24,000 nt of DNA from Vibrio sp. Of14-4 (GTDB lineage Bacteria > Pseudomonadota > Gammaproteobacteria > Enterobacterales > Vibrionaceae). Where the stretch lies: assembly GCF_022347625.1 (NCBI RefSeq), contig NZ_JAKRGI010000002.1, positions 132,561 through 156,560 on the forward strand. Direction: 5' to 3'. Each line of letters begins with the position of its first letter. Positions within the stretch are counted from its first letter, which is position 1. Below are positions 2,804 through 23,084 of the stretch, one piece after another. The notes beneath the pieces were generated by a model. It worked only from the letters and a program-made list of their open reading frames with translations, did not search any database and had not been told where the DNA came from. A program made the translations under genes and the position numbers.

Positions 2804-2860
2804 GGCCAATTACTCCTAAAACTTTGTGTTCCCTACAAAATCAGGCCGAGATAGTAATGC

Positions 2861-2887: not shown

Positions 2888-2965
2888 GATCTTTTATTTG
2901 CACAAGTGATTAAATAAGCGCACACGATAACACTTTAAACCAAATTTGGTAAACAATTGATCAAA

Positions 2966-9869: not shown

Positions 9870-10871
9870 CTACTCAATCGAGTTTTCGTCTTTAAGACTC
9901 CATTTGTGATAAATTTCTTTAATCTCACTTTCTAAGCCTAAAAAGGTATCCACCATATGTGGGTCAAAATGTGAGCCAGCGTTATTTTGTATTTCACTTA
10001 ACGCGTCTTCAATTGACCACGCCTCTTTATAAGGGCGTTCCATAGTCAAAGCATCAAATACATCACAGATAGCGACGATCCTAGCGCCTTGTGGTATTTC
10101 CTCCCCAGCTAAGCCTTCTGGGTATCCTGTTCCATCCCAGCGTTCATGATGAGATTTGGCTACCTCAGCACCCAACTGGAATACAGGGTTAGAAGACATA
10201 GATAATATTTCATGACCAATTTCAGAGTGCTTTTTCATCACTACCCATTCATCCTCAGCTAAAGGTCTTGGCGCTTTAAGTATCGCATCAGGTATGCCAA
10301 TTTTCCCCGTGTCATGCAAAGGGGCTGCAAGTTCTAATAAGTTATAATTTTCATAATCCCAACCCACAGCTTTGGCTAATAACTTACAGTACTCGGCCAT
10401 GCGCCAAATGTGACTACCTGTGTCAGTATCATTATAATGGCCAGCAACACCCAGCATTCGAATCGCCGATAGAGCCAAAGAATCAACTTCAGCTAAACGA
10501 GTTAGAGATAGGTGAGTGGCAACACGACGAAGAACAATAGCCGGTGAGAAAGGTTTGGTTATATAATCAACGGCGCCTAGATCAAAACCCTTGGATTGAT
10601 CATCTGTGTCATCTTTAGCTGAGATAAAAATAACCGGAATATGAGCCGTTTCTGGCTCACACTTAAGCCTTCGACAGACTTCAAATCCATCCATCTCTGG
10701 CATCATAATGTCGAGTAAAATAATATTAGGCTGAGGCGATGTGTTTGCGAGCTTCAGCGCTTTCTCACCACTTGTGGCTGCCCTTACTGAGTAATTGCCT
10801 TTCTCCAATACACTTTTCAGAATTCGGATATTGTCTGGAACATCGTCAACCACTAAGATTGTTTTATCCAT
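9870..10871 (-). CDS. Response regulator with HD-GYP c-di-GMP phosphodiesterase output domain (RpfG type)
   Basis: REC domain (ILVVDDVPDN..., LLDIMMPEMDGFEV, phospho-acceptor Asp present, ITKPF). HD-GYP domain with intact motifs (APLHDTGKIGIP, KKHSEIGHEIL, SHHERWDGTGYPEGL, ICDVFDALTMERPYK). The ATG at 10871 (MDKTILVVDD) with a GAGG-type SD is preferred to the track's TTG at 10889. The gene starts 21 nt after the kinase stop. Confidence 0.9.
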   Translation of the reverse strand: MDKTILVVDDVPDNIRILKSVLEKGNYSVRAATSGEKALKLANTSPQPNIILLDIMMPEMDGFEVCRRLKCEPETAHIPVIFISAKDDTDDQSKGFDLGAVDYITKPFSPAIVLRRVATHLSLTRLAEVDSLALSAIRMLGVAGHYNDTDTGSHIWRMAEYCKLLAKAVGWDYENYNLLELAAPLHDTGKIGIPDAILKAPRPLAEDEWVVMKKHSEIGHEILSMSSNPVFQLGAEVAKSHHERWDGTGYPEGLAGEEIPQGARIVAICDVFDALTMERPYKEAWSIEDALSEIQNNAGSHFDPHMVDTFLGLESEIKEIYHKWSLKDENSIE

Positions 10872-10892
10872 TCTAGCCTCTAACCTCAACTC

Positions 10893-13613
10893 TTATATGC
10901 TAGATAGTATTTTATCTAGACATTCTAGCGCTTCGTCACTGTCGTATATTTCAATTGCTTCATTCAAGCGCTCTATCTCACCTGCTGCAACTTGTCCTTG
11001 TAACATGGCAACTAAGCTTGCAATGCTTTCCTCTTCAAATTCGCCTAACTCTAGCTGTTCCCTGATTTCCTCGCTCAGAGCTTTCACTTGTTCAAGGTCA
11101 AATTCCTGAGACACAATGGGGGAAGCATCAGTTTGAGTGTCAATAAGCGCAATAGATTCGAGGACCTGCTGCAAGGCGGATGAAAGTTCATTCCATTCCT
11201 CTGGCAGAATGTCTTTAGCCTGCTGTTTAAACGCTTGCTCAAAGGTAAAAGCAACCTGTGATAGGCGGTGCGCCCCTAGCGATGCTGAGGCCCCTTTCAA
11301 GGTATGTGCAGTAATCTCACCCTGCGCATAATCTTTGTCTTGCCACGATGCTTTTAAATCAGAGAAAGTCGTTTGATTATTTTTCGAAAAGCTAGTGAGG
11401 AGTTTGGTATACAAAGCTCTATCCTCATTGACTCTAGATAGACCTTCTTCAGTATTGATACCGCACAGTTCTGGTAGTGCTGACTCTTTGTCAATCTCAT
11501 CACTCTGTTGAGTCGGTGAACATTCAAAATTCTCATCTTTAAAGCTGGGATCAATCCACTTGAGCAACTTACTATATAACTCACTGGTATCTATCGGTTT
11601 AGCGATATGATCATTCATGCCCGCTTCGGCACACCGTTCTCTATCCTGCTGCATCGCATTAGCTGTCATTGCAATAATGGGGATGTCTTGGTGAGTCGGT
11701 TGTTCTCTCAGCACACTTGCTGCTTCTAGACCATCCATCACCGGCATCTGTAAGTCCATTAGAATCAGCGCATACTCACCATCAAGAGCCTTGTCTACCC
11801 CTTCTTTACCGTTGTTCGCCACTTCCACATTCAGGCCAACACTTTCCAATAACTCTACAGCAATAATTTGGTTGACTTCATTGTCTTCAACCAAAAGTAC
11901 CGGTGCCCCACGAACCGACGCAAAGCTTTCGAATAAGAGTTCGGTTTCATTTTTTTGCCCTGCACTATCAACAACCACTGCTTTACCCATGACTTCCATG
12001 ACAGTGTCCAACAAAGCCGATGCGCTAACAGGCTTAACCAGAAAACCATCGATCTTAGCCTCTGCAGCCTGAAGAACCACTTCCTCTCTGCCGTATGCTG
12101 TCATTAAAATGATTTTTGGAGAACAGTCGAGCGTTTTAATGATTTCCGATGCCTTAATGCCGTTCATTTCAGGCATTTGCCAATCCATTAAAACAAGTTC
12201 ATAGGGTCGATCCTCCGCCATGGCTTTTTTAACTTTATCAATCGCATCAAAGCCATCTATCGCAGTGGATATATCAAGAGCATAGGAGTGGAGAAGTTCC
12301 TTGTTGATATCACGAGCACTCTTGTTATCGTCCACAATCAAAGCTTTCATTCCTTTGAGCTTTTTCCAGTTGTAAATACGCTCTTGCTGATTTTCTATCT
12401 CATTATCAAGCACTCCGAATTCAGCAGTAAAAATGAAGCTACTTCCTTGCTGATAAACACTCTCTACCCAGATATCACCATTCATCAAGTGAACCAGGTT
12501 TTGACAAATACTAAGCCCTAAGCCCGTTCCGCCATATTTTCGAGTGGTTGAGGTGTCTGCCTGACTAAATGCACTGAACAGCTTTTGTATTTGTTCGGGT
12601 TTCAAGCCAATGCCCGTATCTTTGACCTCAAACTTTAACTTCACTCTGTCATTTGATTGTTCACAGTGAGTGATCTTAACGATAATTTCGCCTTGTTCAG
12701 TGAACTTAATTGCGTTGTTGCATAGATTGGTGAGTATCTGGCCAAGGCGTAAAGGATCTCCAACAAGTGAGTTGGGCAGTTCAGGTGGGGTTGAGAAAAT
12801 CACCTCGATGCCTTTTTCCTGTGCTTTTAACGTAATGATGGTGCACAGGTCGTCAAAAACTTTATCAAGCTGGAACGGAATATTTTCCATTTCCATTTTA
12901 CCAGCCTCAATCTTTGAAATATCGAGAATATCGTTGATGATACCCAGTAGAGCGCGCCCCGCTGAGTTTATCTTACCAATATAGTCATACTGCTTTGCGG
13001 TTAATTGCGTTTTGAGAACCAGCTCACTCAAGCCAATAATGGCATTCATCGGGGTGCGTATCTCGTGACTCATATTGGCCAGAAAATCGCCTTTTGCCAC
13101 ATCGGCCTCTTTGGTTCTTTCCAGCGATATTTGTAGCTCACGCATCAACTCTTGTTGCGAAAGCTGATTGAGTTTATGGCGTTGAAACTCAGTATTCTCT
13201 TGTGGGTTAAAGGAAAGATAAGGAAAGCGCTTAAAGGCCATCACGGTGTGAGAATGATTACTCGCAGTCTCGATACTGAAAGAATCAAAGATGTAGTCAT
13301 AATTCATAGATGGAAGCGCCCCAATAGCGCTATGAAACTCGAGTTTTATCCCCCAATTATCAGTAATCCGTGAAAAAGAAAGTGACGCATTGAAGCTATC
13401 GCATGTCGATAGCATTTTGTGACAAACTTCAGAGACCGCTGTGGCCACACGAACGGCGTTGACTCTAGAAAAATGACAATCAAGAGCAAGCCTTTTGACT
13501 TTATTTCTGAAGTCAACAACCGATGGGCTGTCTTCTATGCTACAGTCGGCAAGCTTGATATTGTCTTCGTCAGACGCTTGCTCCATTTCTTTTAGGACCG
13601 TTTCGAGATTCAT
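10893..13613 (-). CDS. Cytoplasmic hybrid sensor histidine kinase: novel N-terminal domain, HisKA, HATPase_c, REC, REC, Hpt
   Basis: H-box FLANMSHEIRTPMNAIIG. N-box LTNLCNNAIKFT. G-boxes VKDTGIGL and GGTGLGLSI. Two receiver domains (LVLMDWQMPEMNG, LILMDLQMPVMDG, each with ...KP). C-terminal Hpt (ITAHTLKGASASLGA). No hydrophobic TM segments. The ATG at 13613 is preferred; the track's TTG at 13634 abuts the rsbX stop codon (13631-13633). Confidence 0.9.
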   Translation of the reverse strand: MNLETVLKEMEQASDEDNIKLADCSIEDSPSVVDFRNKVKRLALDCHFSRVNAVRVATAVSEVCHKMLSTCDSFNASLSFSRITDNWGIKLEFHSAIGALPSMNYDYIFDSFSIETASNHSHTVMAFKRFPYLSFNPQENTEFQRHKLNQLSQQELMRELQISLERTKEADVAKGDFLANMSHEIRTPMNAIIGLSELVLKTQLTAKQYDYIGKINSAGRALLGIINDILDISKIEAGKMEMENIPFQLDKVFDDLCTIITLKAQEKGIEVIFSTPPELPNSLVGDPLRLGQILTNLCNNAIKFTEQGEIIVKITHCEQSNDRVKLKFEVKDTGIGLKPEQIQKLFSAFSQADTSTTRKYGGTGLGLSICQNLVHLMNGDIWVESVYQQGSSFIFTAEFGVLDNEIENQQERIYNWKKLKGMKALIVDDNKSARDINKELLHSYALDISTAIDGFDAIDKVKKAMAEDRPYELVLMDWQMPEMNGIKASEIIKTLDCSPKIILMTAYGREEVVLQAAEAKIDGFLVKPVSASALLDTVMEVMGKAVVVDSAGQKNETELLFESFASVRGAPVLLVEDNEVNQIIAVELLESVGLNVEVANNGKEGVDKALDGEYALILMDLQMPVMDGLEAASVLREQPTHQDIPIIAMTANAMQQDRERCAEAGMNDHIAKPIDTSELYSKLLKWIDPSFKDENFECSPTQQSDEIDKESALPELCGINTEEGLSRVNEDRALYTKLLTSFSKNNQTTFSDLKASWQDKDYAQGEITAHTLKGASASLGAHRLSQVAFTFEQAFKQQAKDILPEEWNELSSALQQVLESIALIDTQTDASPIVSQEFDLEQVKALSEEIREQLELGEFEEESIASLVAMLQGQVAAGEIERLNEAIEIYDSDEALECLDKILSSI

Positions 13614-13630
13614 AATGCATTTCCGAGCTC

Positions 13631-14209
13631 TCAATTAACTCGGATTACTAGACACGTGGCATCATCAGACGCTTTCGCGAACTTCCGAGTGATATTCTGG
13701 GCAATAGTTTCAGCATTATCAGTATAGATGTTTGGATAATCTTTTGGATCAAAATTACTCATAATTCCATCAGAATAAAGTATTAATATTTCTCCAGGCA
13801 CCATCTGCACCCTATTTTTTTTCGGCGTCCGAATCTGATAGCCGAGTACACCTTGTTGACAGATAAATCTTTGTACTTCTTTACCGACCTTACACATGAA
13901 GATGTTACCAATACCGACATACTCTAGGCACAGCGACTCCACATCCAGATTGGCAATAATGGCAACGCCGCCATTTGTGCTTCGTAAGTTGTTATGTAAC
14001 TGCTCCATTAATTCTGCAAGATCTGTCTGATAGAACTGTTTCAAAAAGCGACGAGTCGTACTAGCGATACTGTGCGCGCTTTTACCATGTCCAGCACCAT
14101 CAAATAAACTAATAAAATAATCACTGCCATTTTGCTGATAAAAAGCGTCGTCACCATTCACCTCTTCGAGCGGCTTTTCACCAATCGCGATCTCGATTCT
14201 TTCTGTCAT
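13631..14209 (-). CDS. rsbX: RsbX-like PP2C (SpoIIE-family) serine phosphatase
   Basis: ~192-196 aa, the same size class as B. subtilis RsbX. PP2C-type motifs GDDAF, LFDGAGHG, LYSDGI and DDATCLVIRV. The ATG at 14209 forms an ATGA overlap with the rsbT stop. An alternative ATG lies at 14221. Position directly after rsbT matches the canonical rsbR-S-T-X order. Confidence 0.8.
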   Translation of the reverse strand: MTERIEIAIGEKPLEEVNGDDAFYQQNGSDYFISLFDGAGHGKSAHSIASTTRRFLKQFYQTDLAELMEQLHNNLRSTNGGVAIIANLDVESLCLEYVGIGNIFMCKVGKEVQRFICQQGVLGYQIRTPKKNRVQMVPGEILILYSDGIMSNFDPKDYPNIYTDNAETIAQNITRKFAKASDDATCLVIRVN

Positions 14210-14610
14210 TGCTTTAGCCATTTCCTTACCGTGACAGCAGTGCCAACACCTAGTTCTGTATCTATATGAAACGAATCCATCAGTCGTTTAGTACCAGGTA
14301 AACCCACCCCCATGGTCCCACCTGTACTGTAGTTATCACTCAGAGCTTTTTCGAGGTCTCGTATACCTCCACCGTTGTCTTTAGCGATGATTTCGACCCC
14401 TATTTTTTCTCCTTCTTGGACAGATTTAAGGTACAAAAACCCCCGTCCTGCATGATTAAGGATGTTTCGGGTTAATTCACTGACCGCTATTGAAATCATA
14501 TATTGGTCCACAGTAGAAAAGCCGAGCTGCTGCGCAAAAAGTTTCGCATCTAAACTGGCATAACCGACATCTGAGTCAGTCACAATGTCTAGTTTGGCGT
14601 TTTCTTTCAC
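14206..14610 (-). CDS. rsbT: RsbT-like serine protein kinase / switch protein (GHKL HATPase_c_2 type)
   Basis: N-box AVSELTRNILNHA, G1 box AKDNGGGI, G2 GGTMGVGLPG. The GTG at 14610 (G-rich SD GGGGGG 4 nt upstream) gives 134 aa versus 133 aa for B. subtilis RsbT. The track's TTG at 14637 remains possible. Confidence 0.85.
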   Translation of the reverse strand: MKENAKLDIVTDSDVGYASLDAKLFAQQLGFSTVDQYMISIAVSELTRNILNHAGRGFLYLKSVQEGEKIGVEIIAKDNGGGIRDLEKALSDNYSTGGTMGVGLPGTKRLMDSFHIDTELGVGTAVTVRKWLKQ

Positions 14611-14664
14611 CCAGCCCCCCAAGAGTAGTAGGTTCAAGCACTTGGACTTTTTCCATCATCTTCA

Positions 14665-15036
14665 TTAATGAGAGCGCAAATATTCCAGTGCTTCTTCCAT
14701 ATTTCGTTTGGTCGTCAAACCTCCAATGTCCATATTGGAATCAATCATAGATGCTATGACCCCAGGGCTTAACCCCGTTATGGCAGCACGAGAGCCCATA
14801 ACTTTAACCATATTGACTAGCTTAATAAATACATTCCACAATGAACTGTCGACAATATCAACACCCGAAAAGTCTATGACAACACCTTTAACGTGTCGTG
14901 CTCCTAGCTTGTCCAACAGCACCTCTTGTACTCGCTTTGCATCATCAATCGACAGCTCTTCTTGTATTGGTACAATCAAGCAGCGACTCATATCATGAAC
15001 CACCACTTTAATCATATCTGCTGGAGTATTACTCAT
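14665..15036 (-). CDS. rsbS: RsbS-like single-domain STAS protein (stressosome scaffold / RsbT antagonist)
   Basis: ~123 aa STAS domain. It has the conserved phosphorylatable-serine context VIDFSGVDIVDSS (compare B. subtilis RsbS Ser59 in ...G...VDS). The ATG at 15036 overlaps the rsbR stop by 8 nt (ATGAGTAA). The track's start at 15054 adds 6 codons. Confidence 0.85.
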   Translation of the reverse strand: MSNTPADMIKVVVHDMSRCLIVPIQEELSIDDAKRVQEVLLDKLGARHVKGVVIDFSGVDIVDSSLWNVFIKLVNMVKVMGSRAAITGLSPGVIASMIDSNMDIGGLTTKRNMEEALEYLRSH

Positions 15037-16606
15037 GCCATTTGTCCTGATCACCTTGGCTTTCGCTTAGTGTGTACCCAGCGATTTTAAAGGAATTATT
15101 CACACCTTCTTTGAGCGTGGACTGAGTCACTATATCGTTGAGTTCGATACCAAGATTGACGATAGCTTGAGCAACTACTGGAGAGATGCCTGTCACAATA
15201 CATACACACCCCATCAGCCTTGTAGCCTTAGCAACCTTCAAAAGATGGTTAGCAACAGCGCTGTCTACAGTCGGAACTCCCTGAATATCAATAACAATCA
15301 CGCGCGCTTCATAATCGATCACTTTTTGCAGCACAGCTTCCATGATCATCTGGATTCGATTTGAATCAATCAGGCCAATCACTGGTAACATAAGTACTTT
15401 ATCCCAAAGCTGCATCACGGGCGTCGACATTTCCATAATCATCGAGGCCTGTTTTGCTCGTTCCTCAGACATTCTCTTACGATCAGTGATATCCGAGGCG
15501 ACCTTAAGCACTTTGTATGGTTCACCTTTGAGGTCTAAGACTGGGTTATAAGTGGCTTGGATATAAACTTCTCGACCATTTTTGGCAATGCGCTTAAATT
15601 CTCCCGAATTAAACTGTCCAGCACCGAGCTCACGCCAAAATTCTCTATACTGCTCAGTTTCACTGTATTCTTTGTCACAGAACAACCTATGGTGCTTACC
15701 TTGAACCTCTGCCAAGCTATAGCCCATAAGATCCAAAAAGTTCTTGTTAGCGGTAATGACTGTTCCATCAAGATTAAACTCTATTGTTCCCAATGATTTA
15801 TCAATCGCATCGGCTTTAGCCTGAGCTTCATTACTTATAGTTTTGAACTCGGTAATATCTGATGCAACTTTTAGCACCTTGACCAGTTTACCTTGTTCAT
15901 TGAACACAGGATTATAGGTCGCTTGTATAAAAACAGTTTGTCCATCCTTAGTCACGCGAACAAATTCACCCGAACTGTATTCCCCTTTACCCAAATTATC
16001 CCAAAATTGGCTATATGCCACGCTTTGGCGGTATTCATCTTCGCAAAATATTCTATGGTGCTTACCTTTAATTTCGCTGAGGGTGTAATGCATGAGGTCA
16101 AGAAAATTCTGATTAGCTGTAATGATGGTGCCATCTAGCTCGAATTCTATTGTCGCTAGTGATCGGTCAATCGCTTGTATATGTGCTTTTGCCTTGATGC
16201 TGGCAAGCTTGCTATCGGTAATATCATTGGCAACTTTAACAACTCGTATAGCCTTACCATTACTATCAAATACCGGGTTATACGTTGCCTGAAGGTAGAT
16301 TTCTTTCCCTCCTTTCGCAACACGTTTATATTCACCAGAATCGTACTCACCCTTGCCTAACTTAGCCCAAAAATCCTTATAAGCTTTGCTTCTAGCGTGT
16401 GCAGGCGTGACAAACATTCGATGATGCTTGCCTTTAATTTCATCCAGAGAATACCCAACAACATCAAGAAAATTTTGATTCGCATTATAAATAGTGCCAT
16501 CAAGCTCGAACTCTATAACACCTTGAGAACGGTTAATCGCGTTGTACACACTTTCATATAACTCTGCTTCTGTATCAAAACCTTTGTTTGTTTTTTTCAT
16601 TGCCAC
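15029..16606 (-). CDS. rsbR: RsbR-like stressosome sensor: three tandem PAS domains plus C-terminal STAS domain
   Basis: 525 aa. Three 122-aa PAS repeats (aa 23-133, 145-255, 267-377) each contain IEF-x-LDGT-x-x-x-AN-x-NFL...GKHHR-x-F...IQATYNPV...KV-x-DIT. The C-terminal STAS (aa ~393-505), VIVIDIQGVPTVDSAVANHLLKVAKATRLMGCVCIVTGISPVVAQAIVNLGIEL, is closely colinear with the RsbRA C-terminus as I recall it. AAGGAG SD 6 nt upstream. Confidence 0.85.
   Translation of the reverse strand: MAMKKTNKGFDTEAELYESVYNAINRSQGVIEFELDGTIYNANQNFLDVVGYSLDEIKGKHHRMFVTPAHARSKAYKDFWAKLGKGEYDSGEYKRVAKGGKEIYLQATYNPVFDSNGKAIRVVKVANDITDSKLASIKAKAHIQAIDRSLATIEFELDGTIITANQNFLDLMHYTLSEIKGKHHRIFCEDEYRQSVAYSQFWDNLGKGEYSSGEFVRVTKDGQTVFIQATYNPVFNEQGKLVKVLKVASDITEFKTISNEAQAKADAIDKSLGTIEFNLDGTVITANKNFLDLMGYSLAEVQGKHHRLFCDKEYSETEQYREFWRELGAGQFNSGEFKRIAKNGREVYIQATYNPVLDLKGEPYKVLKVASDITDRKRMSEERAKQASMIMEMSTPVMQLWDKVLMLPVIGLIDSNRIQMIMEAVLQKVIDYEARVIVIDIQGVPTVDSAVANHLLKVAKATRLMGCVCIVTGISPVVAQAIVNLGIELNDIVTQSTLKEGVNNSFKIAGYTLSESQGDQDKWHE
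15476..16540 (-). repeat. Three tandem 366-bp coding repeats (PAS1-PAS3) inside rsbR
   Basis: The period is exactly 122 codons (AINRS at aa 23, AIDRS at aa 145, AIDKS at aa 267). By my hand alignment PAS2 and PAS3 are identical at 69 of 111 residues. Synonymous sites differ extensively, for example attcaggcaacgtataacccggta / atacaagcgacctataatcctgtg / atccaagccacttataacccagtc, so the duplication is old. Confidence 0.85.
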
Positions 16607-16865
16607 TCCTTGGAATTATTGCGCCCAATAAAAACTTCGTTTAACCCGATAAGCTTAGTCACTAAACTATAGATTAATGCGAGAAAAACAGCCTAAATCA
16701 AACGCCGCAAAAATTTCACACCCGTTCGCCCTACTCAGCGCACAAATCATCACTTCCCCATCGTTTAAGTGCTTGATACCGCTATAACTTACTACTGTAT
16801 CTTAATAAAATTGGCTATTCTTAATACATAACTAAACGACATGTAAAATTAACAGGAATCAACTC

Positions 16866-18257
16866 ATGACTCAGGATAACTACAGCAAGCTTTCTGACAG
16901 CGAACTTGAGTATGTGGATGATAAAACCGCTGCCTTGTTACTCAATACCCCCGGTAGTGCCCGTATTATGCTTTGGGTAATGTTGCTATTTTTAATTTTA
17001 GCGGGGGTTTGGGCGTCTTGGGCGCAGATTGACAAGGTAACCGTGGGAGAAGGAAAAGTAGTCCCCTCTTCTCAAGTTCAAATCGTTCAAAACCTTGAAG
17101 GTGGTCTTGTTAAAGAAATTTTAGTACGTGAGGGCCAAACGGTTCAAAAAGGCCAACAGCTACTACTAATAGATGACACACGTTTTCGGTCCGACTTTCG
17201 CGAACGTGAGCAGCAAATTGCCAATCTCACCGCAAGTGTACTGCAATTATCTGCCTCAATTACGAGCGTGACCGTCAATGAAAAATTTAGCCCGAACTCT
17301 TGGCAAAAAAGCGTAGAAATTAATTTTAATAAATTGGCTTTTCCCCCTTCTCTGGTTGAACGACAACCACGCCTTGTTGCAAGGCAAAGAGCTGAATATC
17401 AGCAAGACCTCAACAACCTGAATAACCAAATTTCACTGATTGACCAACAAGTGAAGCAAAAGCAACAAGATCTGGTTGAAATACAAGCTAGGGTAAAAAA
17501 TTTACGTGAAAGTTATAATTTTGCCCTCAAAGAGCTCGAAATCACCAAACCATTGGCTGATGAGGGTGTGGTGCCGCAAATAGAATTACTGAAACTGCAA
17601 CGGCAAGTCAATGATACGCGGCGAGAAATGACTTCCAGCGAGCTTAAAGTGCCAGTACTCCAATCTGCTATTCAAGAGTCAATGCTAAACCGGATTGATG
17701 CTGCGCAAAAGTTTCGTTCCGAGCAACAAGAAAAGCTCAACCAAACGCAAGACAAACTTTCCGCACTAACAGAATCGAGTGTCGGTTTAGAGGATAGAGT
17801 CAACAGGACTGTCATCATATCTCCTGTCATTGGGACGGTAAAAACTCTCAATGTGAATACGGTCGGTGGTGTTATACAACCAGGCATGGACATTGTGGAA
17901 ATTGTGCCCAGTGAAGACACATTACTAGTGGAAGCTAAGATCGCTCCTCAAGATATTGCCTTCTTAAGGCCAAACTTAAATGCCATTGTTAAATTTAGCG
18001 CTTATGATTTTACTAAGTATGGCGGACTTGAAGGAAGCCTTGAGCATATTAGTGCTGACACCACAACGGATGAAGAAGGAAACAGCTTTTACCTTGTAAG
18101 GGTTAGAACCAAAGAAACAAGCCTAAATAATGATACTTCATTGCCCATTATACCTGGCATGACAGCATCAGTTGATATAATTACAGGAAAGCGCACAGTG
18201 ATGGAATACTTGCTAAAGCCCATTATCGGAGCCAAAAACAACGCACTTAAGGAATAA
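16866..18257 (+). CDS. lapC: HlyD-family type I secretion membrane-fusion (periplasmic adaptor) protein, LapC-like
   Basis: 463 aa. Cytoplasmic N-terminus, single TM (IMLWVMLLFLILAGVWASWA), then VTVGEGKVVPSSQVQIVQNLEGGLVKEILVREGQTVQKGQQLL (HlyD lipoyl/barrel motif), a long coiled-coil, and C-terminal PGMTASVDIITGKRTVMEYLLKP, typical of the HlyD family. Confidence 0.85.
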   Translation: MTQDNYSKLSDSELEYVDDKTAALLLNTPGSARIMLWVMLLFLILAGVWASWAQIDKVTVGEGKVVPSSQVQIVQNLEGGLVKEILVREGQTVQKGQQLLLIDDTRFRSDFREREQQIANLTASVLQLSASITSVTVNEKFSPNSWQKSVEINFNKLAFPPSLVERQPRLVARQRAEYQQDLNNLNNQISLIDQQVKQKQQDLVEIQARVKNLRESYNFALKELEITKPLADEGVVPQIELLKLQRQVNDTRREMTSSELKVPVLQSAIQESMLNRIDAAQKFRSEQQEKLNQTQDKLSALTESSVGLEDRVNRTVIISPVIGTVKTLNVNTVGGVIQPGMDIVEIVPSEDTLLVEAKIAPQDIAFLRPNLNAIVKFSAYDFTKYGGLEGSLEHISADTTTDEEGNSFYLVRVRTKETSLNNDTSLPIIPGMTASVDIITGKRTVMEYLLKPIIGAKNNALKE

Positions 18258-18302
18258 CAATGCCAGAAACTCTGCTTACTTATTTGCATAGACAGTGACG
18301 AA

Positions 18303-18965
18303 ATGAAACTTCTGTTCTCGCTTCTATTATTCATTATGGTCTCAACCACTTCACTGGCACTCAATACCCAAGAACAACGCTGGGTTGATGCGGTTAGGAA
18401 GACATATGGAGAGCGAGCAGGAAAAAGAGTCGAAACTTGGCGTCGTGAAATGGTCCAATTCAAAGGGCTGCCGGAGAAAGAAAAGCTGGTCAAAGTAAAT
18501 CGCTTTTTCAATCAACTTAATTTCATCAATGATAATAGGCTTTGGGGCAAGAAAGACTATTGGGCAACTCCACTTGAATTTTTGGGCAGTAATGGCGGCG
18601 ATTGTGAGGATTTTACTATCGCGAAGTATTTTTCACTGCTTGAGCTTGGGGTCTCAGATAAAAAACTCAGGCTAGTCTACGTTAAAGCAATAACGCTAAA
18701 TCAATTCCATATGGTACTGGCCTATTATTCGAAGCCAAGCGCAGAACCTATTTTGCTCGATAACATTGATCCACAGATTAAAAGAGCATCCAAACGTCGA
18801 GATTTATTACCTGTATACAGCTTTAACGGTAAAAATCTGTGGCTAATGAAATCGAAGAAAGGGCAACTGGCCGGAAAATCATCAAGACTAAGCTTATGGA
18901 ATGATCTCAGGGCCAGAGAGAAATCACTCAAATTGAATAAACCAATTTTGAAATACGATGAGTAG
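18303..18965 (+). CDS. lapG: LapG-type periplasmic transglutaminase-like cysteine protease (BTLCP family)
   Basis: 220 aa. Sec signal peptide (MKLLFSLLLFIMVSTTSLA|L). Catalytic Cys context GGDCEDFTIAKYF, His in FHMVLAYY, Asp in LLDNIDP. It lies directly upstream of a LapD-like gene, the canonical pairing. Confidence 0.88.
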   Translation: MKLLFSLLLFIMVSTTSLALNTQEQRWVDAVRKTYGERAGKRVETWRREMVQFKGLPEKEKLVKVNRFFNQLNFINDNRLWGKKDYWATPLEFLGSNGGDCEDFTIAKYFSLLELGVSDKKLRLVYVKAITLNQFHMVLAYYSKPSAEPILLDNIDPQIKRASKRRDLLPVYSFNGKNLWLMKSKKGQLAGKSSRLSLWNDLRAREKSLKLNKPILKYDE

Positions 18966-18970
18966 GCAAT

Positions 18971-20881
18971 ATGACTTTATATAAACAACTTGTCGCGGGA
19001 ATGATAGCGGTATTTTTGATGCTGATGGTTTCGGTTTTCATCATCGAATTTAACACAACGCGAAACAGCCTGATCCAGCAGCAACGGTCAGAAATGAACA
19101 ATACCATCAACACTGTCGGCCTTGCTTTGGCCCCCTACTTAGAAAGCAAAGATCAAGTAGCGGTTGAGTCGGTCGTAAATGCTCTATTTGATGGCAGTAG
19201 CTATTCCATCGTGCGTCTCATTTTCCTCGATAATGGGGAAGAAATTATCCGCTCCTACCCCGTCAAACCACTCGAGGTTCCCGACTGGTTTACGGGCCTG
19301 CATTTATTCGATCGTATTCATGATCGCCGGGTCGTGACCAGCGGCTGGATGCAACTCGCTGAGGTTGAAATTGTAAGCCATACTGGGGATGCCTACACCC
19401 AGCTTTGGAATGCATTTGTTCGCCTCGCCATAGCTTTTAGTCTTATCTTCTCCATTGGTTTAATGTCGATTGCTTTTATCCTCAAACGCGCACTGCGTCC
19501 TTTACACCTCATCGTTACCAAAATGGAGCAAGTAGCGCGCAATCAATTTGGAGACCCATTACCCAGACCTTCGACTAAAGACCTTATCTATGTTGTCGAC
19601 GGCATCAATAGTATGTCTTCCCAATTGGAGCAATCATTTAAAGCCCAAGCACAAGAAGCCCAAAAACTCAGAGAACGAGCCTACATTGATCCCGTATCAA
19701 AACTGGGTAATCGTGCCTACTATATGAATCAGCTCAATGCTTGGTTAGGCGAAGGTGGAGTTGGTGGGGTTGCCATGCTCGAGGCAAGCTTTATTCATGA
19801 TCTCTATGAAGAGAAAGGCTATAAAGCCGGCGACAGTATGGTCAGGGAATTATCTGACCACCTCACTGTTTCATTAACCTTCCCAGATATCACCATAGCG
19901 CGAATTTCTCCCGAAGAGTTTGCATTTATCATCCCCAACATGAGTGAAAGTGAACTAAAAAATATCTCTGAGAGCATCATTAATTATGTCCAAGGAATTA
20001 ACCCTGATCCAACTGGGATGGCGAAATCAAATGTGGCGCTAGGTGTTGTGTACAATGAGGTGCCTAAAGACACATCCAGCATACTGACTATGCTGGATAA
20101 CGCATTAGCGACAGCAAAATCGGACCCAGAAATTACTTACGGTTACGTCACCAGTGACAACTCTGACAATCTGATGGGTAAACAACAGTGGAAAGCGCTC
20201 GTTGAAGAAGCCATGAGTAACGACTGGTTCAAATTCCGCTATCAGGTCGCAAACGATGGTTCAGGGAAAACCTACCATAGAGAAGTTTTCTCTGCGATTG
20301 AAAGAGATGGCGAAAGATTCAGTGCCAATCAATATATGTTTGCTTTGGAACAGCTTCACGCCAGCCATCTATTCGATGAGTACGTGATTCAAACTATGGT
20401 TACTCAACTTGAACAGGGCGCTTTCTCTGATCCTGTAGCGATTAACATCTCACAAAGCAGTATTGCTGAGCCAAGCTTTATTCGCTGGGTTACTCAGATC
20501 TTAAGCCGACACAAGTCAACAGCCCCGCTACTGCATTTTGAAATTCCCGAAAACTGCTTTGTCAATACACCTCATCATACGGCGCTCTTTTGTAATGCGA
20601 TTCGTAATGCAGGCGCTGATTTTGGTGTCGATAACTACGGAAGAAATTTCCAATCTTTGGATTACATCAACGAATTCAGACCCGCTTATGTTAAAGTTGA
20701 CTATCTTTACACTCACCACTTAGACGAGGAAAAACAGCAATTTACCTTAACTTCAATTTCGCGCACAGCACATAACCTTGGGATTAAGACGATTGCATCT
20801 CGTGTAGAAACTCAGGCGCAACTCGACTTTTTAGCGGAGCATTTTATCGATGTATTCCAAGGCTTCATTGTAGATAAGTAA
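18971..20881 (+). CDS. lapD: LapD-type inner-membrane c-di-GMP receptor (periplasmic LapD_MoxY_N domain, HAMP, degenerate GGDEF, degenerate EAL)
   Basis: 636 aa. Two TM segments flank a ~120-aa periplasmic domain that contains the LapG-binding loop Trp context (TSGWMQL). HAMP follows TM2. The GGDEF position reads RISPEEFAF (degenerate). The C-terminal EAL-fold domain lacks a canonical EAL signature (HREVFSAIE) and ends ...FQGFIVDK. The gene starts 5 nt after the lapG stop. Confidence 0.85.
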   Translation: MTLYKQLVAGMIAVFLMLMVSVFIIEFNTTRNSLIQQQRSEMNNTINTVGLALAPYLESKDQVAVESVVNALFDGSSYSIVRLIFLDNGEEIIRSYPVKPLEVPDWFTGLHLFDRIHDRRVVTSGWMQLAEVEIVSHTGDAYTQLWNAFVRLAIAFSLIFSIGLMSIAFILKRALRPLHLIVTKMEQVARNQFGDPLPRPSTKDLIYVVDGINSMSSQLEQSFKAQAQEAQKLRERAYIDPVSKLGNRAYYMNQLNAWLGEGGVGGVAMLEASFIHDLYEEKGYKAGDSMVRELSDHLTVSLTFPDITIARISPEEFAFIIPNMSESELKNISESIINYVQGINPDPTGMAKSNVALGVVYNEVPKDTSSILTMLDNALATAKSDPEITYGYVTSDNSDNLMGKQQWKALVEEAMSNDWFKFRYQVANDGSGKTYHREVFSAIERDGERFSANQYMFALEQLHASHLFDEYVIQTMVTQLEQGAFSDPVAINISQSSIAEPSFIRWVTQILSRHKSTAPLLHFEIPENCFVNTPHHTALFCNAIRNAGADFGVDNYGRNFQSLDYINEFRPAYVKVDYLYTHHLDEEKQQFTLTSISRTAHNLGIKTIASRVETQAQLDFLAEHFIDVFQGFIVDK

Positions 20882-20898
20882 TAAGGTTACAGCCGTAA

Positions 20899-23013
20899 AT
20901 GCAAGATCCTTTACTCAATTCACTCATATACATTAGCCGCTACTTTGGGTTAGCGAATTCACCAGAAGCTCTGATCAATGGCTTGCCATTATCGTCTGGA
21001 AAATTAACCCCGTTTCTATTCCCTCGTTCAGCTGAACGCGCTGGGCTGGTCGCTAAGGAAAACCGCTCACAATTAACCGAAATATCAGAGCTAGTCCTCC
21101 CAGTTGTATTACTTCTTAAAGGTGGGGAGGCTTGTGTACTCAATACGATTAACCTAGAGAAGCAAGAGGCTGAGGTGGTCACTGGCGAATCAGGACTGGT
21201 GCCGATTTCGATATCGATTGAGGAGCTTAATGAGCTCTATATTGGCCGCTATTTTCTGGTGAAAAAGCAGTTTCGTTATGATGAACGCTCACCAGAAATT
21301 TTAAAAACTCGTCAAGGTCACTGGTTCTGGTCAACATTGTGGCAGTCAAAGAATATCTATCGAGACGTTTTTATCGCTTCGATAATGATCAATTTGTTTG
21401 CAATAGCAGCCCCTATGTTTACACGTTTGGTCTATGACAAGGTTGTCCCCAATTTAGCCTTTGAAACACTGTGGGTTTTGGCCAGTGGTATCTTTGTAAT
21501 TTTTCTTTTTGAACTCACACTAAAAATTCTTCGCAGCTATTTTATCGATGTGGCGGGGAAGAAATCTGACGTACTCATATCGTCAAAACTCTTCAGTAAA
21601 GTTCTCGGGATTCGAATGGAAGCCAAACCTCCTTCAGTCGGGGCTTTCGCAAGACACTTGCAGGAGTTTGAATCAATTCGAGAATTTTTTACTTCAGCAA
21701 CGATTGGCTCTCTTATCGACCTTCCTTTCGCACTGTTATTTTTGTTATTAATATGGCTAATGGCAGGAAACCTAGTCTGGATTCCTATCTTAGGCGTTGT
21801 GATCCTCATCATCTATTCCGCCATCATCCAAGGGCCACTCAAGCAATCGATTGAAGAAGGGTCGCGTTTGGCATCACAAAAGTATGCCAACCTCATCGAA
21901 AGTTTATCTGGATTAGAGACGCTCAAACTGTTTGGCGCTCAAAGTCAATTTCAGTTCAAATGGGAAGAAGCCGTTGCCCACATGTCGAATTGGAGTATAA
22001 AAAGTCGACGAATAACAGACGGTATTCACAACACGGCGGGCTTTGTTCAACAAGCCTCAAACGTAGGCATGATCATTCTTGGCGTGTACTTGATCGCCGA
22101 TGGCGAGCTTACTATGGGCGGCCTTATTGCTGCTACTATGCTCAGTAACAGAGCTATAGGTCCTATGGTTCAGCTATCACTCCTTTCCACTCGATATAAT
22201 CAAGCTAAGTCTTCGTTGTCTATTATAGAGCAAATAATGGCCATGCCAGATGAACAAGAAGAGGGAAAACGCTATATCCATAGGCCAATAGTGAAAGGTA
22301 AAATCGAGTTGGATAAAGTCACTTTCCACTATCCGGACTCTCCTGTCGCTTCAATTCGCGATCTAAATCTCACCATAAGCCCGGGTGAGAAAGTTGCTAT
22401 TATAGGCCGAATAGGTTCAGGAAAAACCACGCTTGAGCGGCTAATCCTAGGGCTTTATCAGCCAACTGAAGGCCATGTTCGCATTGACGATACAGACATA
22501 CAACAGCTTCATCATATAGACATCAGACGCAACATTGGGTGCGTTCCTCAAGACAGTCAGCTGTTTTATGGTTCGATACGTGACAATATCACCCTTGGTC
22601 GACCGCTCGCCGATGACCGAGATGTCATGGACGCCGCCAATCGCGCTGGAGTGACCGTTTTTACTCAACAAGATCCGGCAGGTCTTGAGCGACAAGTCGG
22701 TGAAGGCGGACTGCTGCTTTCTGGAGGGCAACGACAAGCGGTTGCGATTGCAAGAGCATTCTTACATAGGCCACCAGTCCTTCTAATGGATGAGCCAACC
22801 AGTGCTATGGATAATCGCTCTGAAATGCATATTAAACAGCAGCTTTCTCAGCTTAAAGCGTCAGAAACACTGGTTTTGATCACTCATAAAACATCCATGT
22901 TGGATGTGGTCGATAGAATCATCGTGATGGAGAAAGGCACTATCATAACCGACGGACCAAAAGCTGAGGTTCTCAATAATTTGAGACAAGGCAATATACG
23001 CGCAGTTAATTGA
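20899..23013 (+). CDS. lapB: Type I secretion ABC transporter (permease/ATPase with N-terminal C39-like domain), LapB-like
   Basis: 704 aa. An N-terminal ~130-aa C39-peptidase-like domain, six predicted TM helices, Walker A GRIGSGKTT, ABC signature LSGGQRQ, and Walker B VLLMDEPTSAMD. Confidence 0.88.
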   Translation: MQDPLLNSLIYISRYFGLANSPEALINGLPLSSGKLTPFLFPRSAERAGLVAKENRSQLTEISELVLPVVLLLKGGEACVLNTINLEKQEAEVVTGESGLVPISISIEELNELYIGRYFLVKKQFRYDERSPEILKTRQGHWFWSTLWQSKNIYRDVFIASIMINLFAIAAPMFTRLVYDKVVPNLAFETLWVLASGIFVIFLFELTLKILRSYFIDVAGKKSDVLISSKLFSKVLGIRMEAKPPSVGAFARHLQEFESIREFFTSATIGSLIDLPFALLFLLLIWLMAGNLVWIPILGVVILIIYSAIIQGPLKQSIEEGSRLASQKYANLIESLSGLETLKLFGAQSQFQFKWEEAVAHMSNWSIKSRRITDGIHNTAGFVQQASNVGMIILGVYLIADGELTMGGLIAATMLSNRAIGPMVQLSLLSTRYNQAKSSLSIIEQIMAMPDEQEEGKRYIHRPIVKGKIELDKVTFHYPDSPVASIRDLNLTISPGEKVAIIGRIGSGKTTLERLILGLYQPTEGHVRIDDTDIQQLHHIDIRRNIGCVPQDSQLFYGSIRDNITLGRPLADDRDVMDAANRAGVTVFTQQDPAGLERQVGEGGLLLSGGQRQAVAIARAFLHRPPVLLMDEPTSAMDNRSEMHIKQQLSQLKASETLVLITHKTSMLDVVDRIIVMEKGTIITDGPKAEVLNNLRQGNIRAVN

Positions 23014-23046: not shown

Positions 23047-23084
23047 CAGCCCAACACACGCAAATGCATTGGGCTGTTCTTTTA
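23047..23084. terminator. Rho-independent terminator between convergent lapB and ribA
   Basis: Stem CAGCCCAA (23047-23054) / TTGGGCTG (23069-23076) with a 14-nt loop, followed by TTCTTTTA on the plus strand. The T-tract overlaps the ribA stop codon. The upstream flank (aacaat, AT-rich) gives it some minus-strand terminator potential. Confidence 0.75.

What the first reader, a model, noticed from the sequence alone, without database searches (positions are those of the whole stretch)
9870..23013. Stressosome-phosphorelay-HD-GYP operon back-to-back with a LapD/LapG c-di-GMP effector and T1SS operon: candidate stress-to-detachment circuit
Seen in the sequence:
- Six co-directional minus-strand genes with tiny gaps or overlaps (rsbR-rsbS-rsbT-rsbX-hybrid HK-REC/HD-GYP, 16606 down to 9870) share a 259-bp divergent intergenic region (16607-16865) with lapC-lapG-lapD-lapB (16866-23013).
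- The terminal gene of the first operon has intact HD and HHERWDGTGYP motifs.
- The second operon encodes a LapD-type receptor with a degenerate GGDEF (SPEEF) and a degenerate EAL domain.

Established knowledge:
- HD-GYP domains hydrolyse c-di-GMP.
- LapD holds the LapG protease only when c-di-GMP-bound. When c-di-GMP falls, LapG is freed to cleave the N-terminal retention module of a T1SS-exported RTX adhesin (Pseudomonas fluorescens LapA; Vibrio cholerae FrhA/CraA).
- RsbRST modules outside Firmicutes are coupled to non-sigma outputs, including two-component systems (Vibrio) and a diguanylate cyclase (Moorella).

Inference: the enzyme that lowers c-di-GMP and the receptor that reads that drop are genetically adjacent and probably co-regulated. 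That suggests a dedicated local pathway: PAS-sensed signal -> stressosome -> HK/Hpt -> HD-GYP -> LapD/LapG adhesin release. I do not know of a described stressosome-to-Lap link, so I treat it as a hypothesis.
Basis: partly seen in the sequence, partly recalled or inferred. Interest (0 to 1): 0.78.

Follow-up and report, generated by a model that had tools for sequence, protein, structure and literature searches.

The report
Stressosome operon beside Lap operon
A Vibrio stress-sensing operon that ends in a c-di-GMP-degrading enzyme sits back-to-back with a c-di-GMP-controlled adhesin-release operon, but only in one Vibrio clade, so a dedicated stress-to-detachment circuit remains an untested hypothesis.

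Summary
On the minus strand lie rsbR (three PAS domains plus STAS), rsbS, rsbT, rsbX, a hybrid histidine kinase and a REC-HD-GYP gene. They diverge across about 265 bp from lapC-lapG-lapD-lapB.

Both modules are already known. The first matches the V. vulnificus RsbRSTX-D1-D2 locus, for which c-di-GMP degradation has been proposed. The second is the ortholog of V. cholerae VCA1080-84.

The adjacency recurs in V. aquimaris, V. pectenicida, V. hepatarius, another Vibrio sp. and two metagenome contigs. There the whole 20-kb neighbourhood is collinear, so this counts as one event.

- The same six-gene cassette in Psychromonas, Gammaproteobacterium AS21 and an Oceanospirillaceae MAG has no lap genes nearby.
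- Seven other Vibrionaceae lap loci, and V. cholerae by literature, have no stressosome nearby; pdxH is the usual left neighbour.
- Vibrio sp. THAF191d carries both systems at least 0.85 Mb apart.

A dedicated pathway is therefore not supported. Coupling through the shared c-di-GMP pool stays plausible.

By-product: the kinase's unannotated N-terminal domain is an RsbW/SpoIIAB/RsbT-like pseudokinase. It is a candidate docking module between the stressosome and its outputs.

The parts
15029..16600 (-). rsbR: three PAS domains plus a C-terminal STAS domain (stressosome sensor subunit)
   Evidence: Pfam finds PAS_3/PAS_4/PAS_9 three times plus STAS. The best solved match of the STAS region is the V. 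vulnificus stressosome RsbR, 7o0i_B, E 3e-40. An ATG with a GGAG ribosome-binding site lies at 16600.
14665..15036 (-). rsbS: single STAS domain, with the conserved DS serine in VDIVDSS
   Evidence: Pfam STAS; sequence. It overlaps the end of rsbR by 8 nt, as in relatives.
14206..14610 (-). rsbT: GHKL Ser/Thr switch kinase with intact N box (ELTRN) and G boxes (DNGGGI, GVGLPG)
   Evidence: Pfam HATPase_c_2. It is 100% identical to the Vibrio sp. Of14-4 protein and has 126 homologs, several labelled RsbT by their sources.
13631..14221 (-). rsbX: single-domain PP2C feedback phosphatase
   Evidence: Pfam SpoIIE, E 5e-14. It holds the same position in every related cassette.
10893..13613 (-). Hybrid histidine kinase (D1 type): N-terminal domain, HisKA, HATPase, REC, REC, Hpt
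   Evidence: Pfam. H box SHEIRTP, receiver aspartates and the Hpt histidine HTLKG are visible in the sequence.
13107..13613 (-). N-terminal 169 aa of the kinase: RsbW/SpoIIAB/RsbT-like GHKL fold lacking the N-box Asn and the G1/G2 ATP lid (pseudokinase), followed by a linker helix into the DHp
   Evidence: No Pfam hit. hhalign against the RsbT family gives 96.4% probability, E 1e-9, and 97.0% with 56 sequences. Real score 61.9 versus at most 13.8 in 22 null runs. AlphaFold2 model with pLDDT 92.8. The top 18 Foldseek PDB hits are all RsbW, SpoIIAB or UsfX. The Asn position is variable across the family.
9870..10871 (-). REC-HD-GYP response regulator (D2 type), a predicted c-di-GMP phosphodiesterase
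   Evidence: Pfam Response_reg plus HD_5. Best solved match is PmGH, 4mcw, E 4e-51, with metal ligands and HHERWDGTGYP conserved.
16601..16865 (.). Divergent intergenic region. The half next to lapC is conserved even in a stressosome-less Vibrio; the half next to rsbR is specific to the clade.
   Evidence: Alignments A2 and A3. No Rfam match. Promoter-like matches are not above chance.
16866..18257 (+). lapC: HlyD-type T1SS periplasmic adaptor (ortholog of VCA1080)
   Evidence: TIGR01843, 443 bits, above cutoff. Gene order matches V. cholerae (PMC6890996).
18303..18965 (+). lapG: periplasmic transglutaminase-like cysteine protease (ortholog of VCA1081)
   Evidence: Pfam Peptidase_C93. NCBIfam LapG E 4e-63, though 212 bits is below the 320-bit equivalog cutoff.
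18971..20881 (+). lapD: inner-membrane c-di-GMP receptor (LapD_MoxY_N, HAMP, degenerate GGDEF reading SPEEF, EAL reading EVF)
   Evidence: Pfam. Matches the solved V. cholerae LapD cytoplasmic module 6pwj at E 5e-206 over residues 222-636.
20899..23013 (+). lapB: T1SS ABC permease/ATPase (LssB type)
   Evidence: TIGR03375, 965 bits, above cutoff.
23047..23076 (.). GC-rich hairpin between the convergent lapB and ribA genes, a likely terminator closing the lap operon
   Evidence: Terminator-like site with 13 pairs.

Best explanation
Two individually known signalling modules were placed back-to-back by a rearrangement in one Vibrio clade. They are most likely linked only through the diffusible c-di-GMP pool, not by a dedicated circuit.

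Module 1 is a stressosome operon of the V. vulnificus RsbRSTX-D1-D2 type, with a tri-PAS RsbR in place of a globin RsbR.
- An unknown signal acts on the PAS domains.
- The RsbR/RsbS STAS core controls the switch kinase RsbT, and RsbX resets it.
- The signal reaches the hybrid kinase. I infer this happens through the kinase's N-terminal RsbW/RsbT-like pseudokinase domain, which would dock onto a STAS domain or onto RsbT.
- Phosphate then passes His, Asp, Hpt and on to the receiver domain of the HD-GYP protein, switching on c-di-GMP hydrolysis as in RpfC/RpfG.

Module 2 is the ortholog of V. cholerae lapC-lapG-lapD-lapB.
- LapD holds LapG while c-di-GMP is bound.
- When c-di-GMP falls, LapG cleaves T1SS-anchored adhesins, which are encoded elsewhere in the genome.

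Shown here: gene content, intact catalytic and phospho-acceptor motifs, orthology, the fold of the N-terminal domain, and the distribution of the adjacency.

Inferred: every signalling step, and any effect of this HD-GYP protein on LapD.
For: - Domain content and motifs.
- LapD is the ortholog of the solved V. cholerae LapD, and the gene order equals VCA1080-84.
- The RsbR STAS domain is closest to the V. vulnificus stressosome. The published V. vulnificus locus has the same RSTX-D1-D2 order and a proposed role in c-di-GMP degradation.
- The six-gene cassette travels as a unit without lap genes in Psychromonas aquimarina, Gammaproteobacterium AS21 and an Oceanospirillaceae MAG.
- Lap operons in V. 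fluvialis, HDW18, Salinivibrio, THAF190c, V. campbellii, Photobacterium GJ3 and THAF191d have no stressosome neighbour. pdxH lies on the left in five of these seven.
- THAF191d has both systems at least 0.85 Mb apart.
- Within the clade the whole 20-kb block is collinear.
- The lapC-proximal promoter region is shared with stressosome-less THAF191d.
- Pseudokinase domain.
Against: - The adjacency has persisted across species that differ by about 25% at the DNA level. That is compatible with selection to keep the two operons together.
- A c-di-GMP phosphodiesterase landing directly beside a c-di-GMP receptor is not the most likely outcome by chance.
- In AS21 the cassette also abuts a c-di-GMP gene, a GGDEF-EAL protein.
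- Local signalling at LapD has a precedent in P. fluorescens, where the cyclase GcbC binds LapD (my own knowledge, not checked here).
- No expression or biochemical data were available.
- Docking by the pseudokinase domain is untested. Two weaker family members are not encoded next to a stressosome.
Confidence: 0.6

Rival explanations
1. The two operons form a dedicated, co-regulated local circuit. The stressosome-activated HD-GYP enzyme lowers c-di-GMP specifically at LapD, perhaps by direct contact between the GYP motif and LapD's degenerate GGDEF domain. Stress would then trigger adhesin release.
For: - Divergent arrangement with a shared spacer of about 265 bp.
- Adjacency kept in at least five Vibrio genomes and two metagenome contigs.
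- HD-GYP and LapD both look functional.
- Precedents from my own knowledge, not checked here: RpfG's GYP motif binds GGDEF proteins, and GcbC binds LapD.
Against: - All instances belong to one collinear block, so they count as one event.
- The cassette has no lap neighbours in five other lineages.
- None of 80 broader stressosome loci has a LapG or LapC homolog nearby.
- Lap operons lack a stressosome in seven other Vibrionaceae and in V. cholerae.
- The two systems are unlinked in THAF191d.
- The lap promoter region predates the juxtaposition.
- V. vulnificus stressosome mutants changed motility and fleQ expression but not biofilm.
Confidence: 0.17
2. The HD-GYP output acts mainly on targets other than Lap. 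Candidates are flagellar and motility regulation (FleQ/FlrA type) or matrix regulators. Alternatively it hydrolyses 3'3'-cGAMP rather than c-di-GMP, in which case the Lap operon is merely a neighbour.
For: - V. vulnificus deletion mutants of rsbRSTX and of D1 lose motility and fleQ expression, with no biofilm change.
- The second-best solved match of the HD-GYP domain is the V. cholerae 3'3'-cGAMP-specific phosphodiesterase 5z7c, E 6e-39.
Against: - The best match is the c-di-GMP enzyme PmGH, E 4e-51, with all ligands conserved.
- Any substantial fall in c-di-GMP is expected to reach LapD, as shown for V. cholerae dispersal.
Confidence: 0.2

Closest known systems
Vibrio vulnificus / V. brasiliensis stressosome locus RsbR-RsbS-RsbT-RsbX-D1-D2 (PMC9237108, PMC10014275, PMC4976288)
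   Same: Same gene order, with rsbX directly after rsbT. D1 is a hybrid kinase with REC and Hpt, and D2 is REC-HD-GYP. The RsbR STAS domain is closest to 7o0i. There is no sigma factor and no RsbU. A role in c-di-GMP degradation has already been proposed.
   Different: RsbR carries three PAS domains instead of a haem globin. The kinase lacks the internal PAS domain of VvD1. The RsbW/RsbT-like N-terminal domain is clear here but only marginal for the globin-type D1 (48% hhalign probability). The genomic neighbours differ.
Vibrio cholerae lapC-lapG-lapD-lapB, VCA1080-VCA1084 (PMC6890996, PMC7768729)
   Same: Same four genes in the same order, with the same lengths for LapG (220 aa) and LapD (636 aa). 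LapD matches 6pwj at E 5e-206. The adhesins and the TolC-like component are encoded elsewhere.
   Different: The left neighbour here is the stressosome operon rather than pdxH. By literature, V. cholerae is not among the stressosome-bearing Vibrio species.
Xanthomonas RpfC/RpfG
   Same: A hybrid kinase with REC and Hpt domains feeds a REC-HD-GYP response regulator that hydrolyses c-di-GMP.
   Different: The input is the DSF signal through a membrane domain, not a cytoplasmic stressosome. RpfC has no pseudokinase N-terminal domain. This comparison rests on my own knowledge and was not tested here.
Moorella thermoacetica stressosome with a diguanylate cyclase output; B. subtilis RsbT-RsbU (RsbU_N)
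   Same: A stressosome coupled to a c-di-GMP enzyme. An N-terminal adaptor domain on the output protein receives the stressosome signal.
   Different: The output here is a phosphorelay ending in a phosphodiesterase. The N-terminal domain has a GHKL pseudokinase fold, not the RsbU_N helical fold.
RsbW / SpoIIAB / UsfX anti-sigma serine kinases (6m37, 1tid, 1th8, 8ih8, 8jzt)
   Same: The fold of the kinase's N-terminal domain. The conserved S-E-x-x-R helix aligns with the RsbT N box. All of these proteins bind STAS partners.
   Different: The Mg-ATP asparagine and the G1/G2 lid are missing, so catalysis is not expected. The domain is fused to a histidine kinase or to PP2C, GGDEF, EAL, cyclase or HD-GYP outputs.

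Membership tests
Stressosome RsbRSTX module | RsbR with a variable N-terminal sensor and a C-terminal STAS domain | tested here: met
   Three PAS domains plus STAS. The STAS region matches solved RsbR chains 7o0i, 7b0u and 6qcm.
Stressosome RsbRSTX module | RsbS: a single STAS domain with a phosphorylatable serine | tested here: met
   Pfam STAS. The VDIVDSS motif is present. Its equivalence to B. subtilis S59 rests on my own knowledge.
Stressosome RsbRSTX module | RsbT: a GHKL Ser/Thr kinase with N and G boxes | tested here: met
   HATPase_c_2. Invariant E54, N58 and G boxes in alignment A1.
Stressosome RsbRSTX module | RsbX: a PP2C feedback phosphatase directly downstream of rsbT | tested here: met
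   SpoIIE domain, 196 aa, overlapping rsbT by 16 nt.
Stressosome RsbRSTX module | Assembly into a large RsbR/RsbS/RsbT complex | not testable with these tools
   Needs biochemistry or cryo-EM.
V. vulnificus-type stressosome-TCS locus (RSTX-D1-D2) | Hybrid kinase and REC-HD-GYP encoded directly after rsbX | tested here: met
   The same order occurs in L083-L089, L091 and L093.
V. vulnificus-type stressosome-TCS locus (RSTX-D1-D2) | Globin-coupled (haem) RsbR sensor | tested here: not met
   The RsbR N-terminus is PAS three times. The globin type is seen in THAF191d, L091.
HD-GYP c-di-GMP phosphodiesterase (RpfG/PmGH type) | HD and HHExxDGxGYP motifs and a full set of metal ligands | tested here: met
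   Alignment to 4mcw. Only the first ligand differs, Glu to Asp.
HD-GYP c-di-GMP phosphodiesterase (RpfG/PmGH type) | c-di-GMP hydrolysis, stimulated by phosphorylation of the receiver domain | not testable with these tools
   Needs an enzyme assay. 3'3'-cGAMP is a possible alternative substrate (5z7c match).
Lap system (LapD/LapG with T1SS) | LapD architecture: periplasmic LapD_MoxY_N, HAMP, degenerate GGDEF, EAL | tested here: met
   Pfam. SPEEF motif. Ortholog of 6pwj. The NCBIfam LapD score of 287 bits is below its 1020-bit equivalog cutoff.
Lap system (LapD/LapG with T1SS) | LapG: a periplasmic C93 cysteine protease | tested here: met
   Peptidase_C93. LapG model E 4e-63, below the equivalog cutoff. 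N-terminal signal-like sequence and a DCED cysteine.
Lap system (LapD/LapG with T1SS) | c-di-GMP binding by the LapD EAL domain | not tested
   Inferred only from orthology to V. cholerae LapD.
Lap system (LapD/LapG with T1SS) | Cognate adhesin with an N-terminal retention module and an AAG cleavage site, plus a TolC-like LapE | tested here: not met
   Neither is encoded in the window or in the 37-kb V. aquimaris stretch. The same holds in V. cholerae, where they lie elsewhere.
Dedicated (local) phosphodiesterase-effector pair | Linkage of the two partners recurs across independent lineages | tested here: not met
   One collinear clade only. Absent from five other cassette lineages, 80 stressosome loci and seven other lap loci.
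Dedicated (local) phosphodiesterase-effector pair | Physical interaction or shared regulation of the partners | not testable with these tools
   Needs two-hybrid or pull-down assays and transcript mapping.
RsbW/SpoIIAB/RsbT GHKL serine kinases (for the kinase's N-terminal domain) | GHKL alpha/beta fold with the N-box helix | tested here: met
   hhalign 96-97%. The Foldseek top 18 hits all belong to this family.
RsbW/SpoIIAB/RsbT GHKL serine kinases (for the kinase's N-terminal domain) | Catalytic Asn of the N box and the G1/G2 ATP-lid motifs | tested here: not met
   The Asn position is K here and variable across the family. The G-box segment is deleted in the alignment. The domain is therefore a pseudokinase, not a kinase.

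The most novel reading that the evidence does not exclude
In this Vibrio clade the juxtaposition would be functional. A PAS-sensing stressosome engages the hybrid kinase through its RsbW/RsbT-like pseudokinase domain. The phosphorelay activates the HD-GYP enzyme, which acts locally on the adjacent LapD to release LapG and shed adhesins. That would be a dedicated stress-to-detachment circuit.

The first step stands or falls on its own. I put the chance that the pseudokinase domain is the missing adaptor between Gram-negative stressosomes and outputs lacking RsbU_N at about 0.45. The probability given below is for the whole dedicated circuit.
Probability: 0.15. Interest if true: 0.7.

Novelty: new member of a known kind. 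Interest (0 to 1): 0.42.

Why it matters
If the link were real, it would give the poorly understood Gram-negative stressosome a concrete physiological output: adhesin shedding and biofilm exit. It would also add a phosphodiesterase to the short list of enzymes that signal locally at LapD.

As it stands, the locus offers a convenient natural arrangement for testing that idea in V. pectenicida, V. hepatarius or V. aquimaris. It is not evidence for the idea.

The more useful result is the RsbW/RsbT-like pseudokinase domain at the kinase N-terminus. The V. vulnificus work reported no RsbU_N domain in D1, failed to detect an RsbT-D1 interaction, and left the coupling step open (PMC9237108). A STAS-binding fold on the output protein suggests specific experiments to address that gap.

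Tried and rejected
- **Genome-contig scan with an RsbT alignment.** I reused them only as a broad control.
- **Word-indexed protein searches with the kinase N-terminus.** One fragment, then nothing. The exhaustive HMMER search was needed instead.
- **Single-sequence AlphaFold2 model of the N-terminal domain.** pLDDT 39.8, so I discarded it. The 57-sequence alignment worked.
- **c-di-GMP riboswitch or other RNA in the spacer or the window.** None found.
- **Promoter and terminator scans.** Counts were at or below the shuffled expectation, so I based no promoter claim on them.
- **LapG substrates in the window.** The two large neighbouring ORFs are lipoproteins without AAG sites or RTX repeats.
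- **Extending the pseudokinase finding to V. vulnificus-type D1.** Only marginal: 48% against the domain profile and 0.6% against RsbT. I do not claim it.
- **The idea that the N-terminal domain always follows rsbX.** Rejected. Two weak family members, P0157 and P0158, sit in non-stressosome contexts.

Full report
**Observation**

The window most likely comes from Vibrio sp. Of14-4: its RsbT is 100% identical to that strain's protein. At the DNA level the region is 96% identical to V. aquimaris THAF100 chromosome 2, which is deposited as a 'plasmid'.

- Minus strand: rsbR (three PAS domains plus STAS), rsbS (STAS), rsbT (HATPase_c_2), rsbX (SpoIIE/PP2C), a hybrid kinase (HisKA-HATPase-REC-REC-Hpt) and a REC-HD-GYP gene.
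- Plus strand: lapC (HlyD type), lapG (Peptidase_C93), lapD (LapD_MoxY_N-GGDEF-EAL) and lapB (LssB-type ABC exporter).

With start codons refined against relatives, gene junctions are overlaps or gaps of at most about 54 nt, and the divergent spacer is about 265 bp.

The quoted motifs are present: HD, HHERWDGTGYP, and SPEEF in LapD. The EAL motif of LapD reads EVF. Against the active HD-GYP enzyme PmGH (4mcw), all metal ligands are retained apart from one Glu-to-Asp change.

**Both halves are already known**

The RsbR STAS domain is closest to the solved V. vulnificus stressosome, 7o0i. The V. vulnificus locus has the same RsbRSTX-D1-D2 order, and its authors already propose that D1/D2 degrade c-di-GMP (PMC9237108, PMC10014275). 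The difference here is a tri-PAS sensor in place of a globin sensor.

LapD matches the solved V. cholerae LapD, 6pwj, at E 5e-206. The order lapC-lapG-lapD-lapB equals VCA1080-VCA1084, whose adhesins FrhA and CraA and whose LapE are encoded elsewhere (PMC6890996). This window likewise encodes no adhesin and no TolC-like protein.

A full-text search for 'stressosome' together with 'LapD' returned one unrelated paper. The proposed link is therefore undescribed in the library I could search.

**Is the adjacency conserved?**

Within one clade, yes. V. aquimaris, V. pectenicida, V. hepatarius, Vibrio sp. GCA_038138445 and two metagenome contigs carry the same divergent pair. They also carry the same chiA, ribA, glyoxalase, sgrR-like and nitroreductase neighbours, in one collinear block of about 20 kb. 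That is one evolutionary event. No synteny breakpoints are available to show special retention of the junction.

Outside the clade, no.

- Psychromonas aquimarina, Gammaproteobacterium AS21 and an Oceanospirillaceae MAG have the same PAS-RsbR-S-T-X-kinase-REC/HD-GYP cassette with unrelated neighbours and no lap genes within 10 kb.
- Two related cassettes, with a REC-GGDEF output or a lone REC output, also have none.
- Among 80 diverse stressosome loci, none has a LapG or LapC homolog. One has a generic GGDEF-EAL protein at 22% identity.

Starting from the lap side gives the same answer.

- The orthologous operon in Vibrio sp. THAF191d, V. fluvialis, Vibrio sp. HDW18, Salinivibrio proteolyticus, Vibrio sp. 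THAF190c, V. campbellii and Photobacterium sp. GJ3 has no stressosome gene within about 12 kb.
- pdxH lies on the left in five of these seven, which points to pdxH|lapC as the ancestral arrangement.
- V. cholerae is not among the stressosome-bearing Vibrio species listed in PMC9237108.

THAF191d is the most informative case. Its lap proteins are 84-90% identical to those of the window. Its own globin-type RsbRSTX-kinase-HD-GYP operon sits at least 0.85 Mb away on the same replicon, next to an MCP gene and a REC gene.

**The spacer**

Alignment of the spacer across the clade shows several conserved blocks. Adding THAF191d shows that the roughly 115 bp next to lapC, including TTTAAGTGCTTGATA, is conserved without any stressosome. 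The half next to rsbR is specific to the clade. The lap regulatory region therefore predates the juxtaposition.

No Rfam family, including c-di-GMP riboswitches, matches the spacer or the window. Consensus promoter and terminator counts do not exceed the shuffled expectation. A 13-bp hairpin at 23047-23076 probably closes the lap operon.

**How it probably works**

The phosphorelay is complete on paper: H box, two receiver aspartates, the Hpt histidine, and the receiver of the HD-GYP protein. It resembles RpfC/RpfG.

The unresolved step in Gram-negative stressosomes is how the complex talks to the kinase. The V. vulnificus authors found no RsbU_N domain in D1 and failed to detect an RsbT-D1 interaction.

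Here the first roughly 135 residues of the kinase have no Pfam match, yet they prove homologous to RsbT.

- Profile-profile comparison gives 96.4% probability and E 1e-9 over 112 columns. With 56 sequences it gives 97.0%.
- The real score is 61.9, against at most 13.8 in 22 reversed or shuffled controls.
- An HMM built from the domain hits RsbT proteins directly.
- An AlphaFold2 model built on 57 homologs has mean pLDDT 92.8 and pTM 0.81.
- Its top 18 Foldseek matches in the PDB are all RsbW, SpoIIAB or UsfX anti-sigma serine kinases, with probability 1.00 and target TM-scores of 0.58-0.72. The next hits fall below probability 0.3.
- The S-E-x-x-R helix is kept, the Mg-ATP asparagine is not, and the G1/G2 lid is deleted. 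The domain is a pseudokinase.

An exhaustive search of 1.84 billion cluster representatives finds 58 with E ≤ 0.001. The domain is at or near the N-terminus in all of them. Among the 57 aligned sequences (56 of these plus the query), 41 carry HisKA. A few carry PP2C, GGDEF, EAL, nucleotide cyclase or HD-GYP outputs instead.

In every locus examined for a strong family member, the gene follows rsbX directly. This includes a PP2C-HATPase_c_2 protein. Two weak members (E about 3e-6) are not next to a stressosome. The globin-type D1 of THAF191d matches only marginally.

Every solved relative binds a STAS partner. I therefore infer that this domain docks the output protein onto RsbS or the RsbR STAS domain, or pairs with RsbT. 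That is inference, not demonstration.

**Verdict on the interpretation**

A fall in c-di-GMP caused by this HD-GYP protein would be expected to reach LapD, like any other c-di-GMP receptor.

Dedication, local signalling and co-regulation are not supported. The linkage arose once, is absent wherever else either module occurs, and the lap promoter is older than the junction.

V. vulnificus stressosome and D1 mutants changed motility and fleQ expression but not biofilm. This is weak indirect evidence against a primarily adhesin-directed output. A 3'3'-cGAMP substrate cannot be excluded either, given the 5z7c match.

**Novelty and score**

The locus is a new member of two known kinds of system: a tri-PAS variant of the Vibrio stressosome-TCS locus, and an ortholog of the V. 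cholerae lap operon. The adjacency hypothesis is testable but weakly grounded.

The pseudokinase adaptor domain is, within the literature I could search, undescribed. It makes an open mechanistic question testable. Overall interest is moderate, at 0.42.

Noticed in passing
window 13107-13613 (minus strand; kinase residues 1-169): The kinase's unannotated N-terminal domain is an RsbW/SpoIIAB/RsbT-like GHKL pseudokinase. It lacks the N-box Asn and the G1/G2 lid. It defines a small family of 58 cluster representatives fused to HisKA, PP2C, GGDEF, EAL, cyclase or HD-GYP outputs. Strong members are encoded directly after rsbX.
   Followed up: yes
window about 11000-16500, compared with L085 (Vibrio sp. 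GCA_038138445): Mosaic divergence. Flanking genes and lapGDB are 91-97% identical at the DNA level (93-98% at the protein level). The stretch from the kinase through rsbR drops to 70-81% DNA identity (77-85% protein), while the HD-GYP protein stays at 97%. This suggests allelic replacement of the stressosome core by recombination, or unusually fast evolution.
   Followed up: partly
window 16601-16865: Blocks conserved across the clade in the divergent spacer: AACTATAGA(T/A)TAA and AAAACAGCC near rsbR; ACTCAGCGCACAAAT, TTTAAGTGCTTGATAC, TAACTTACTACTG and AAAATTGGCTATTCTTAA near lapC. Only the lapC-proximal part is shared with stressosome-less THAF191d. No regulator was assigned.
   Followed up: partly
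window 15029-16600 (RsbR): Each of the three PAS domains carries the same GKHHR(M/I/L)F motif, at the position where LOV domains have NCRFLQ. The weak solved matches are FAD-type PAS domains (3ewk, the Aer receptor 8dik). The cofactor and the signal are unknown.
   Followed up: no
window 233-2809 (minus) and 2957-5098 (plus): Two large predicted lipoproteins with a lipobox Cys near the N-terminus. One has two Lcl_C-terminal domains. The other has no Pfam match and contains a GQGQGQGQGQG repeat. Neither has a LapG-type AAG site or RTX repeats.
   Followed up: partly
window 23082-23690; L002 18238-20781: ribA (GTP cyclohydrolase II) lies between lapB and chiA in the stressosome clade. It is absent from that position in THAF191d, where chiA directly follows lapB. 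Both flanks of the lap operon have therefore been remodelled in this clade.
   Followed up: partly
L089 14869-17055 (Gammaproteobacterium AS21): A GGDEF-EAL gene, together with an SBP_bac_3 gene, lies convergent and immediately downstream of the cassette's HD-GYP gene. This is a second case of the cassette sitting next to a c-di-GMP gene, though not a Lap gene.
   Followed up: no
L095 1-16687 (V. fluvialis record NZ_AP028132.1): A complete Lap locus lies on an 83-kb record typed as mobilizable. It holds a giant Ig-like adhesin gene (more than 7.9 kb), TolC and OmpA genes, then lapC-lapG-lapD-lapB. It shows what the window's operon is missing in cis.
   Followed up: no
L097 5358-8494 (Salinivibrio proteolyticus): A sensor kinase and a sigma-54-dependent regulator are inserted between pdxH and lapC. 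THAF190c and V. campbellii also have about 3.4 kb between pdxH and lapC. Different regulators appear to have been recruited beside lap in different lineages.
   Followed up: no
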